Below, one piece after another: positions 1,421 through 3,327 of a stretch of DNA of 64,000 nucleotides. The notes below the pieces were generated by a model that was not told the origin of the DNA, ran no database searches, and worked only from the letters and a program-made list of their open reading frames with translations. Source of the DNA: Escherichia coli (GTDB lineage: Bacteria > Pseudomonadota > Gammaproteobacteria > Enterobacterales > Enterobacteriaceae); the NCBI RefSeq assembly GCF_045037415.1, contig NZ_CP173438.1, one strand, 5' to 3'. The position numbers and the translations under genes are program-made. Every line of letters starts with the position of its first letter. Position 1 is the stretch's first letter.

Positions 1421-1684
1421 TCAGGCGCGGATTTGTTGTGATGTGGTTGTGCTCTGGCAGATAGCAACGTGTGCGACGTCCACCAGTTTATTTAACTGAC
1501 TAAACAGTAAGTCGACCGACCGTGGGCTGGCAACGGTCAATTCGATATTTATATTTTGTGCATCGCTGGCGGCAGCCATATTCATTGAGCAGACGTGGAA
1601 ACCACGATGACGCACCACGCGTAAAACACGTTCTAAGGTTTCCGGATTGAAGCGAGCCGATACATTGACCTGATGTTGCATCAT
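1421..1684 (-). CDS. ilvM: acetolactate synthase II small subunit (87 aa)
   Basis: ORF translation [29 protein letters not shown]...; start overlaps ilvG stop by 4 nt. Confidence 0.92.
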
Positions 1685-3327
1685 GATAATTTCTCCAACA
1701 TTTCAGAATTACTGGCACCAGGCGGCACCAGCGGCCAGACGTTCTCAAGTTCGTCGATTGAGACATGAAGCAGGTATGGCCCATCACTGTTCAGCATGGT
1801 GTCGAGTGCCGCTTCAACCTGGTCTTTATGGGTGATGTGTTGGCCAGGGATGCCGAAGGCGCTGGCTAACATGAGGAAATCGGGGTTATCGGTAAGGGTG
1901 GTTTCGCTGTATCGTTCCTGGAAAAACAGTTGCTGCCATTGTCGAACCATCCCTAACCGTTGGTTATCGAGTAAGACGATTTTCAACGGTAACTGCTTGC
2001 GTTTTACGGTGCCCAGCTCTTGCACATTCATCATAAAAGAGCCGTCACCGGAGATACAGACGACAGTATCGTTCGGTCGCGCGACTTGTGCGCCAACCGC
2101 CGCCGGTAAACCGAAACCCATGGTGCCTAAGCCGCTGGAGGTGATGAAGTTTTCCGGGCGAGTGTGGACGATGTGCTGGGCAGCCCACATCTGGTGCTGC
2201 CCCACATCTGTGGTCACGATGCAATCCGCAGGTTTACGATCCGACAGTTGTTTTAACAACAACGGCGCGTAGATAGCGTCACCAGGATGGTCGTAACGCC
2301 AGGCATGTTCATCACGCAGTTGCGCGCAGTGTTGCTGCCAGTCATCGATATTTAACGGCTGCTGTAATGCTGGTAACAGAGCATTTAAATCACCCTGTAA
2401 TGCCACATGTGCCTGACGCAGCTTGTTCATTTCTGCCGGATCGATATCCATATGGATAACGCTGGCGTGTGGTGCGAAGGTGTTCAGTTTGCCGGTCACC
2501 CGGTCATCAAAACGTGCGCCCACGGCTATCAGTAGATCGCACTCCTGCACTGCGAAGTTCGCCGCTTTGGTGCCGTGCATCCCCAGCATGCCCAGATAGT
2601 ACGGATAATCTGCTTCTACTGCGCCCAGCCCTTTCAACGTACAGGTGGCAGGCATTTTTGTGGCAGCGAGAAATTCACGCAAAGCCGAAACTGCCTGCGC
2701 CATGCCCACGCCACCGCCAACGTACAGCATCGGTTTTTGCGCTTTTGCCAGCATCTGACGCGCTTGCTCGACTTCGGCATGTGGGAAAGTCACTTCGTTT
2801 TCAACAGTGGTGAACCACGGTTCCAGATCGCCGCTGGCTAACTGGATATCTTTTGGAATATCGACCAAAACCGGACCAGGACGACCAGAGCTGGCGACGT
2901 CAAACGCTTCGGCCATGATACGCGGTAACTCTTCCAGTGATTGCACCAGGAAACTGTGCTTGGTGCAGGCTAACGACAACCCCAGAATATCCACCTCCTG
3001 AAATGCGTCAGTGCCGATAAACGGTGCGGATACCTGACCGGTGATAGCAACAACGGGGATGGAATCTAACAGCGCGTCCGCAAGCCCGGTTATCAGGTTG
3101 GTTGCACCTGGGCCAGACGTGGCGATGCAAACGCCAGTTTTGCCGGTAGCACGGGCATAACCGATAGCCGCCATTGCTGCACCTTGCTCGTGTCGGCACA
3201 GCAAGTGTTCCACGCCACCGTCATACAATGCATCGTAAACCGGCATAATTGCGCCACCCGGATAACCGAAAACGGTGTTTACACCCTGTGCCCGCAACGC
3301 ATGTACCACCCACTGTGCACCATTCAT
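1681..3327 (-). CDS. ilvG: acetolactate synthase II large subunit, uninterrupted 548 codons
   Basis: Single [28 protein letters not shown]... with ThDP/FAD-enzyme motifs throughout; no internal frameshift. Confidence 0.95.

What the first reader, a model, noticed from the sequence alone, without database searches (positions are those of the whole stretch)
1681..3327. ilvG is a single uninterrupted 548-codon frame, so this is not the K-12 ilvG frameshift allele
In the K-12 reference ilvG is split by a frameshift, making the strain valine-sensitive. Here the large subunit of acetolactate synthase II is intact and translationally coupled to ilvM, with an intact ilvL leader, ilvX and attenuator upstream. 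This marks the sequence as a non-K-12 lineage or an ilvG+ revertant. Together with the bgl differences it shows the window is not simply the MG1655 reference.
Basis: partly seen in the sequence, partly recalled or inferred. Interest (0 to 1): 0.35.

Follow-up and report, generated by a model that had tools for sequence, protein, structure and literature searches.

The report
Ordinary intact ilvG, ST131-type E. coli
This is the normal, uninterrupted gene for the large subunit of acetolactate synthase II, as found in almost all non-laboratory E. coli; only the K-12 laboratory lineage carries the broken copy, so the finding is correct but ordinary.

Summary
Window 1681..3327, on the minus strand, is a single 548-codon ORF encoding IlvG, the catalytic subunit of acetolactate synthase II. 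Its stop overlaps the ilvM start (ATGA). IlvL, IlvX and IlvM are identical to K-12, and the attenuator hairpin with its U8 tract lies upstream.

Against MG1655, the window has 77 substitutions plus two extra bases in an ATAT run (window 2348..2351). K-12 lacks these two bases, which gives TGA at codon 328.

The "ilvG+ revertant of K-12" reading is refuted. ilvG is 100% identical to ilvG of many O25b:H4/ST131-type genomes. The whole 64 kb differs at only 3 positions from two such chromosomes.

The intact frame is the species norm. The exact K-12 junction occurs in 340 of 5426 complete genomes, and all 60 listed are K-12 laboratory derivatives. In an even sample of 60 genomes, 55 have a 1647-bp ilvG, 4 K-12-type genomes have 1645 bp, and 1 carries a deletion. 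Five diverse strains, including one a single substitution away from K-12, all read through.

This is known biology (Lawther 1981, as cited in the papers read). It is useful only as a lineage marker, so interest is low.

The parts
1681..3327 (-). ilvG, catalytic (large) subunit of acetolactate/acetohydroxyacid synthase II; 548 codons, intact
   Evidence: ORF. NCBIfam NF006524 equivalog, 1074 bits against cut-off 738. Pfam TPP_enzyme_N/M/C all full length. E47, GDG(427)...N ThDP motif and W464 present. 100% nucleotide identity to annotated ilvG (WP_001012588.1) in ST131-type genomes.
2348..2351 (-). ATAT run (gene nt 977-980, codons N326-I327), the site of the K-12 lesion; K-12 has only AT here, a 2-bp deletion
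   Evidence: Pairwise alignment with MG1655. Comparison with five other strains, all reading AAT ATC AAT/GAT GAC.
1421..1684 (-). ilvM, small subunit of AHAS II; its start ATG overlaps the ilvG stop TGA (ATGA)
   Evidence: ORF. NCBIfam NF008362, 133.9 bits against cut-off 68. Protein identical to K-12 IlvM. Junction sequence ...TTATCATGATGCAA.
472..1401 (-). ilvE, branched-chain amino-acid aminotransferase, the next gene of the operon
   Evidence: Annotation of the identical ST131-type locus. 97.0% identity to K-12 ilvE.
3330..3380 (-). ilvX, 16-codon small ORF ending 2 nt before the ilvG ATG
   Evidence: Translation [16 protein letters not shown]. 100% nucleotide identity to K-12 ilvX. Annotated 'peptide IlvX' in matching genomes.
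3411..3444 (-). ilv attenuator: G+C-rich hairpin GACCCCCGCACC-GAAA-GGTCCGGGGG followed by U8
   Evidence: RNA fold of 3381..3600(-): -77.9 kcal/mol, z = -5.5. Hairpin and U-tract identical to K-12. Lies inside Rfam RF02744 match 3347..3636(-), 152.9 bits against gathering 88.
3467..3565 (-). ilvL, 32-codon leader peptide with 15 Ile/Leu/Val codons
   Evidence: Translation. NCBIfam NF007744, 81.9 bits against cut-off 59. Peptide identical to K-12 with one synonymous substitution.

Best explanation
Window 1681..3327 (minus strand) is the wild-type, functional ilvG gene of an E. coli chromosome of the O25b:H4/ST131 type.

Shown here: ilvG sits in a standard ilvL-attenuator-ilvX-ilvG-ilvM-ilvE operon. 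ilvG and ilvM encode the catalytic and small subunits of acetohydroxyacid synthase II.

From established knowledge and the papers read: AHAS II condenses pyruvate with pyruvate or 2-ketobutyrate, the first common step to valine, leucine and isoleucine. Unlike AHAS I and III, it is not feedback-inhibited by valine. Transcription is controlled by ribosome stalling on the Ile/Leu/Val-rich leader peptide, which decides whether the terminator hairpin forms.

Inferred: ilvM translation is coupled to ilvG through the ATGA overlap, and a cell carrying this allele should grow in excess valine.

The difference from MG1655 reflects K-12's own recent 2-bp deletion in an ATAT run, not anything special in this sequence.
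For: - Intact 548-codon ORF.
- NCBIfam equivalogs for IlvG, IlvM and IlvL all above their curated cut-offs.
- Three complete TPP domains.
- E47, GDG-X-N motif and W464 present.
- K-12 lacks AT in the ATAT run, giving TGA at codon 328.
- Swine strain PEC399 differs from K-12 ilvG by 1 substitution plus the intact ATAT. B, O157:H7, MS20659 and mouse S1 all have 1647 nt with no internal stops.
- The exact K-12 junction is in 340 of 5426 genomes, and all 60 listed are K-12 laboratory derivatives.
- In the even sample of 60, there are 55 spans of 1647 bp, 4 K-12-type spans of 1645 bp and 1 deletion.
- ilvG is 100% identical to ilvG in ST131/O25b:H4 genomes, and the window differs at 3 of 64,000 positions from two such chromosomes.
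- 66 synonymous nucleotide differences against 9 amino-acid changes relative to repaired K-12, consistent with purifying selection.
- Literature: the frameshift is in K-12 and the gene is intact in B (PMC3446290). K-12 valine sensitivity is due to the ilvG frameshift (PMC7066862). ALS II is reported as the sole active isozyme in urine for UPEC CFT073, and repairing the MG1655 frameshift restores growth (bioRxiv 10.1101/2025.10.31.685768).
Against: No enzyme activity, valine resistance or expression was measured; function is inferred from sequence. The nine amino-acid differences from the repaired K-12 sequence (V114I, C146S, P214S, N328D, S342A, V370I, A387V, H494P, R500H) were not assessed individually. 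Assignment to ST131 rests on identity to genomes so labelled, because none of the seven MLST loci lies in the window. The span-length sample does not exclude nonsense mutations in genomes that were not fetched.
Confidence: 0.96

Rival explanations
1. The window is a K-12 strain in which the ilvG frameshift has reverted or been repaired (a valine-resistant ilvG+ mutant or an engineered strain).
For: The frame is intact at exactly the place where K-12 is broken. IlvL, IlvX and IlvM proteins are identical to K-12.
Against: ilvG has 77 substitutions relative to K-12 (95.2% identity). yifB is 97.5% and ilvE 97.0% identical. The window is essentially identical to ST131-type chromosomes, with 3 mismatches in 64 kb. 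It also carries a bglG nonsense codon that K-12 lacks.
Confidence: 0.005
2. The frame is open but the enzyme is inactive or altered by one of the nine amino-acid differences, so the strain is not truly ilvG+.
For: Nine replacements relative to repaired K-12, none tested.
Against: The score is far above the equivalog cut-off, all domains are complete and the catalytic and cofactor motifs are kept. Differences are mostly synonymous, 66 nt against 9 replacements. ilvG is 100% identical in nucleotide sequence in at least the 30 genomes listed, and 882 genomes are at least 99% identical. ALS II is reported as required for a related uropathogen in urine.
Confidence: 0.03
3. The uninterrupted frame is an assembly or sequencing artefact that hides a real indel.
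For: None specific. Homopolymer and dinucleotide runs such as ATAT are error-prone on some platforms.
Against: The same 1647-nt sequence appears at 100% identity in many independently assembled complete genomes. Unrelated lineages have the same ATAT at the site.
Confidence: 0.005

Closest known systems
E. coli ilvG of non-K-12 strains (e.g. WP_001012588.1 in O25b:H4/ST131 genomes; intact ilvG of E. coli B, O157:H7)
   Same: Identical nucleotide sequence to the ST131-type copies. Same length, frame, operon position and ATGA overlap with ilvM as in B, O157:H7, PEC399, MS20659 and S1.
   Different: No difference from the ST131-type copies. It differs by 55-87 nt (3.3-5.3%) from the alleles of the other lineages sampled, mostly at synonymous sites and concentrated in gene nt 100-500.
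E. coli K-12 ilvG pseudogene (b4488, NC_000913.3 3950560..3952204)
   Same: Same locus and same neighbours. IlvL, IlvX and IlvM proteins and the attenuator hairpin are identical.
   Different: K-12 lacks 2 bp of the ATAT run (1645 nt against 1647 nt) and stops at codon 328. There are also 77 substitutions.
Biosynthetic acetolactate synthase large subunits (TIGR00118; AHAS I IlvB, AHAS III IlvI)
   Same: Same three-domain ThDP/FAD enzyme fold family. TIGR00118 scores 720 bits against cut-off 538.
   Different: The best and only isozyme-specific model passed is AHAS II (NF006524). The AHAS III models score 490-630 bits, below their cut-offs of 950-1080.

Membership tests
Acetolactate synthase II catalytic subunit (IlvG; NCBIfam NF006524 equivalog) | Whole-protein score above the curated equivalog cut-off, with full-length alignment | tested here: met
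   1074.3 bits against cut-off 738; residues 1-547 align to profile 1-547 of 548.
Acetolactate synthase II catalytic subunit (IlvG; NCBIfam NF006524 equivalog) | Three ThDP-enzyme domains (N-terminal Pyr, central FAD-binding, C-terminal PP domain), all complete | tested here: met
   PF02776 residues 1-116, PF00205 residues 186-321, PF02775 residues 374-522, each covering its whole model, E = 6e-42 to 1e-53.
Acetolactate synthase II catalytic subunit (IlvG; NCBIfam NF006524 equivalog) | Catalytic Glu47, ThDP-Mg motif GDG-X(24-27)-N, and Trp464 (the residue reported to favour 2-ketobutyrate; recalled from the literature on E. coli AHAS II, not re-read here) | tested here: met
   E47 in CRHEQGA; GDG at 427 followed by ...LLDN; W464 in RQWQQ.
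Acetolactate synthase II catalytic subunit (IlvG; NCBIfam NF006524 equivalog) | Adjacent small subunit IlvM within the ilvLXGMEDA operon | tested here: met
   ilvM at 1421..1684(-), NF008362 133.9 bits against cut-off 68. Gene order ilvL-ilvX-ilvG-ilvM-ilvE, with ilvD and ilvA beyond the window in identical genomes.
Acetolactate synthase II catalytic subunit (IlvG; NCBIfam NF006524 equivalog) | Enzyme activity insensitive to valine; confers valine resistance | not testable with these tools
   Inferred only, from family membership and from literature on B strains and CFT073.
K-12 ilvG frameshift allele | 2-bp deletion giving ...TTAAATCAATGA... and TGA at codon 328 | tested here: not met
   The window reads TTAAATATCGATGAC, in frame. 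The K-12 junction is restricted to 340 of 5426 genomes.
Leader-peptide transcription attenuator (ilvGMEDA type) | Short leader ORF rich in the regulating amino acids, followed by an intrinsic terminator (G+C hairpin and U-tract) before the structural genes | tested here: met
   ilvL has 32 codons, 15 of them Ile/Leu/Val. Hairpin and U8 at 3411..3444(-); fold z = -5.5. Rfam RF02744, 152.9 bits against gathering 88. Alternative antiterminator pairing was not analysed here.

The most novel reading that the evidence does not exclude
The only mildly unusual feature is the pattern of variation. The ST131/B2-type ilvG allele differs from the allele shared by K-12, PEC399 and B by about 9% over gene nt 100-500, against 0-3.4% in the flanking genes and spacers. 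Strain MS20659 switches between allele types inside the gene. This could mean that ilvG carries an old recombinant segment, or that the nine amino-acid differences tune AHAS II for niches such as urine. Nothing here shows a functional difference.
Probability: 0.07. Interest if true: 0.3.

Novelty: already known. Interest (0 to 1): 0.05.

Why it matters
It matters mainly as bookkeeping. It shows the window is not the MG1655 reference but an O25b:H4/ST131-type chromosome. It also predicts ordinary valine-resistant branched-chain amino-acid biosynthesis. The one practical point is that ALS II is reported as the only active acetolactate synthase for uropathogenic E. coli growing in urine (preprint), so an intact ilvG is expected and probably needed in a uropathogenic lineage such as ST131. 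No open question is advanced.

Tried and rejected
- K-12 revertant: rejected on divergence and whole-window identity to ST131-type genomes.
- Intact frame as a rare state: rejected. The K-12 junction 70-mer is exact in only 340 of 5426 genomes, and all 60 listed are K-12 laboratory derivatives. The even sample of 60 genomes shows 1647-bp spans everywhere except in 4 K-12-type genomes and one deletion strain.
- Consensus terminator scan: it did not report the attenuator on the minus strand, probably because its arms do not pair without interruption. The RNA fold and the Rfam match do show it.
- Consensus promoter scan: it gave no more sites than the shuffles (3 found, 2.7 expected), so no promoter is claimed.
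- Not run, because the NCBIfam, Pfam and genome comparisons already settle the identity: structure prediction, large protein-database searches and metagenome scans.

Full report
**Observation.** The six-frame ORF list shows one uninterrupted ORF at window 1681..3327 on the minus strand, 548 codons with an ATG start. An open frame this long cannot be chance: (61/64)^548 is about 4e-12. The protein scores 1074 bits against the NCBIfam equivalog for the acetolactate synthase 2 catalytic subunit (cut-off 738). It contains complete TPP_enzyme_N, TPP_enzyme_M and TPP_enzyme_C domains. It keeps Glu47, the GDG...N ThDP motif at residue 427, and Trp464.

**Surroundings.**
- The ilvG stop (TGA) overlaps the ATG of an 87-codon ORF at 1421..1684(-). 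This ORF is IlvM (NF008362, 133.9 bits against cut-off 68) and is identical in protein sequence to K-12 IlvM. The overlap reads ATGA. Translational coupling is inferred from that arrangement, not shown.
- Upstream lie ilvX at 3330..3380(-), [16 protein letters not shown], with 100% nucleotide identity to K-12.
- The G+C hairpin and U8 terminator are at 3411..3444(-).
- ilvL is at 3467..3565(-), with 32 codons of which 15 are Ile/Leu/Val. The peptide is identical to K-12.
- Rfam family RF02744, an enterobacterial 5'-UTR family, covers 3347..3636(-) at 152.9 bits against a gathering score of 88.
- ilvE follows at 472..1401(-).

**The proposed test: alignment with K-12.** In NC_000913.3, ilvG is annotated as a pseudogene of 1645 nt. 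Global alignment with the window gene gives 77 substitutions and one 2-bp gap. The window reads TTA AAT ATC GAT GAC where K-12 reads TTA AAT CAA TGA. K-12 has therefore lost AT from an ATAT run (gene nt 977-980, window 2348..2351) and terminates at codon 328.

**Which lineage.**
- The ilvG sequence is 100% identical to ilvG in many complete genomes, including ones labelled O25b:H4 and O25b:H4-ST131.
- Window 1-25000 and window 40000-64000 each match such chromosomes at 100%.
- Direct comparison of the full window with two of them (NZ_CP023849.1, NZ_CP023844.1) gives 3 mismatches in 64,000 bases.
- Identity to K-12 is 95.2% for ilvG, 97.0% for ilvE and 97.5% for yifB.

The "ilvG+ revertant of K-12" alternative is therefore excluded, and the window is an ST131-type chromosome segment. 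No MLST locus lies in the window, so the sequence type itself is inferred from identity to labelled genomes.

**How unusual is an intact ilvG?** It is not unusual.
- A 70-mer spanning the K-12 junction is exact in 340 of 5426 complete genomes. All 60 listed are K-12 laboratory derivatives such as MG1655, DH5alpha, C600, J53 and DH1.
- In an even sample of 60 genomes down the similarity ranking, 55 have a 1647-bp match span. The 4 with 1645 bp are K-12-type. One (NCCP12480) has a deletion fusing ilvG to ilvA.
- Five diverse genomes were fetched: E. coli B C3029, swine isolate PEC399, O157:H7 FRIK2069, blood isolate MS20659 and mouse isolate S1. All have 548-codon frames with no internal stop and ATAT at the site.
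- PEC399 differs from K-12 ilvG by a single substitution plus those two bases. This shows the K-12 lesion is a very recent deletion private to that lineage.

**Mechanism.**
- Shown here: gene identity, intact domains and motifs, operon order, the leader peptide and terminator structure, and the ATGA overlap.
- From established knowledge and the papers read: AHAS II catalyses the first common step of Ile/Val/Leu synthesis and is the valine-insensitive isozyme. K-12's valine sensitivity comes from the ilvG frameshift, because AHAS I and III are feedback-inhibited by valine (PMC7066862). The gene is intact in B strains and accounts for their growth on valine dipeptides (PMC3446290). In uropathogenic CFT073, ALS II is reported to be the only active isozyme in urine, and repairing the MG1655 frameshift restores growth there (bioRxiv 10.1101/2025.10.31.685768, citing Lawther et al. 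1981).
- Inferred: this strain is valine-resistant and expresses ilvM by coupling to ilvG.

**Variation.** Relative to a frame-repaired K-12 sequence there are 66 synonymous nucleotide differences and 9 amino-acid changes, which is consistent with purifying selection. The substitutions are clustered: 37 of 77 lie in gene nt 100-500. MS20659 matches the window allele in nt 100-300 and then diverges. This looks like ordinary intragenic recombination mosaicism. It is the only feature that is even slightly out of the ordinary, and it was not pursued further.

**Verdict.** The biology is textbook and the allele is identical to many deposited genomes. Novelty: already known. Interest: low.

Noticed in passing
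window 47236..48072 (+), stop at 47926..47928: bglG, the antiterminator of the bgl operon, has an in-frame TAA at codon 231 of 278, so the longest clean ORF ends at 47928. It is annotated as a pseudogene ('internal stop') in an identical ST131-type genome. The exact 70-mer around the stop occurs in 413 of 5426 complete genomes, and 700 more match at 95-99%. It therefore looks clade-restricted. bglF, bglB and bglH downstream are intact.
   Followed up: partly
window 1681..3327 (-), especially gene nt 100-500 (window about 2828..3228): Divergence from the allele shared by K-12, PEC399 and B is clustered: 37 of 77 substitutions lie in 400 nt (about 9%). By contrast, ilvM, ilvX and ilvL are 99-100% identical. 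Strain MS20659 is mosaic between allele types. 1358 of 5425 genomes are only 90-95% identical to this ilvG allele. This suggests intragenic recombination.
   Followed up: partly
L010 (NZ_CP068680.1, strain NCCP12480) 3001..5234: This genome has a deletion joining ilvG (about nt 954) directly to the middle of ilvA, removing ilvM, ilvE and ilvD. It is the only genome in the 60-genome sample, other than the K-12 types, with a disrupted ilvG.
   Followed up: no
window 27906..28094: The chromosomal replication origin lies in the window, between mioC and mnmG, with DnaA boxes TTATCCACA/TTATACACA at 27906, 27980 and 28086. The window runs ilvE ... rrnC ... rbs, kup, ravA-viaA, asnA/C, mioC, oriC, mnmG, rsmG, atp operon, glmUS, pst-phoU, bgl ... 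tnaB.
   Followed up: partly
window 38455..38612 (-): Rfam match to the enterobacterial sRNA family STnc410 (188 bits against gathering 50), in the spacer between atpC and glmU, on the strand opposite to both genes.
   Followed up: no
window 6858..12087 (-): A complete rRNA operon of the rrnC type (16S, tRNA-Glu, 23S, 5S, tRNA-Asp, tRNA-Trp), with a StyR-44 Rfam match in the spacer just upstream of the 23S gene (10199..10307).
   Followed up: no
window 53174, and two positions within 1..28000: These are the only differences from the two ST131-type reference loci compared: 3 single-base mismatches in 64 kb. 53174 lies near the end of bglH. Their effects were not examined.
   Followed up: no
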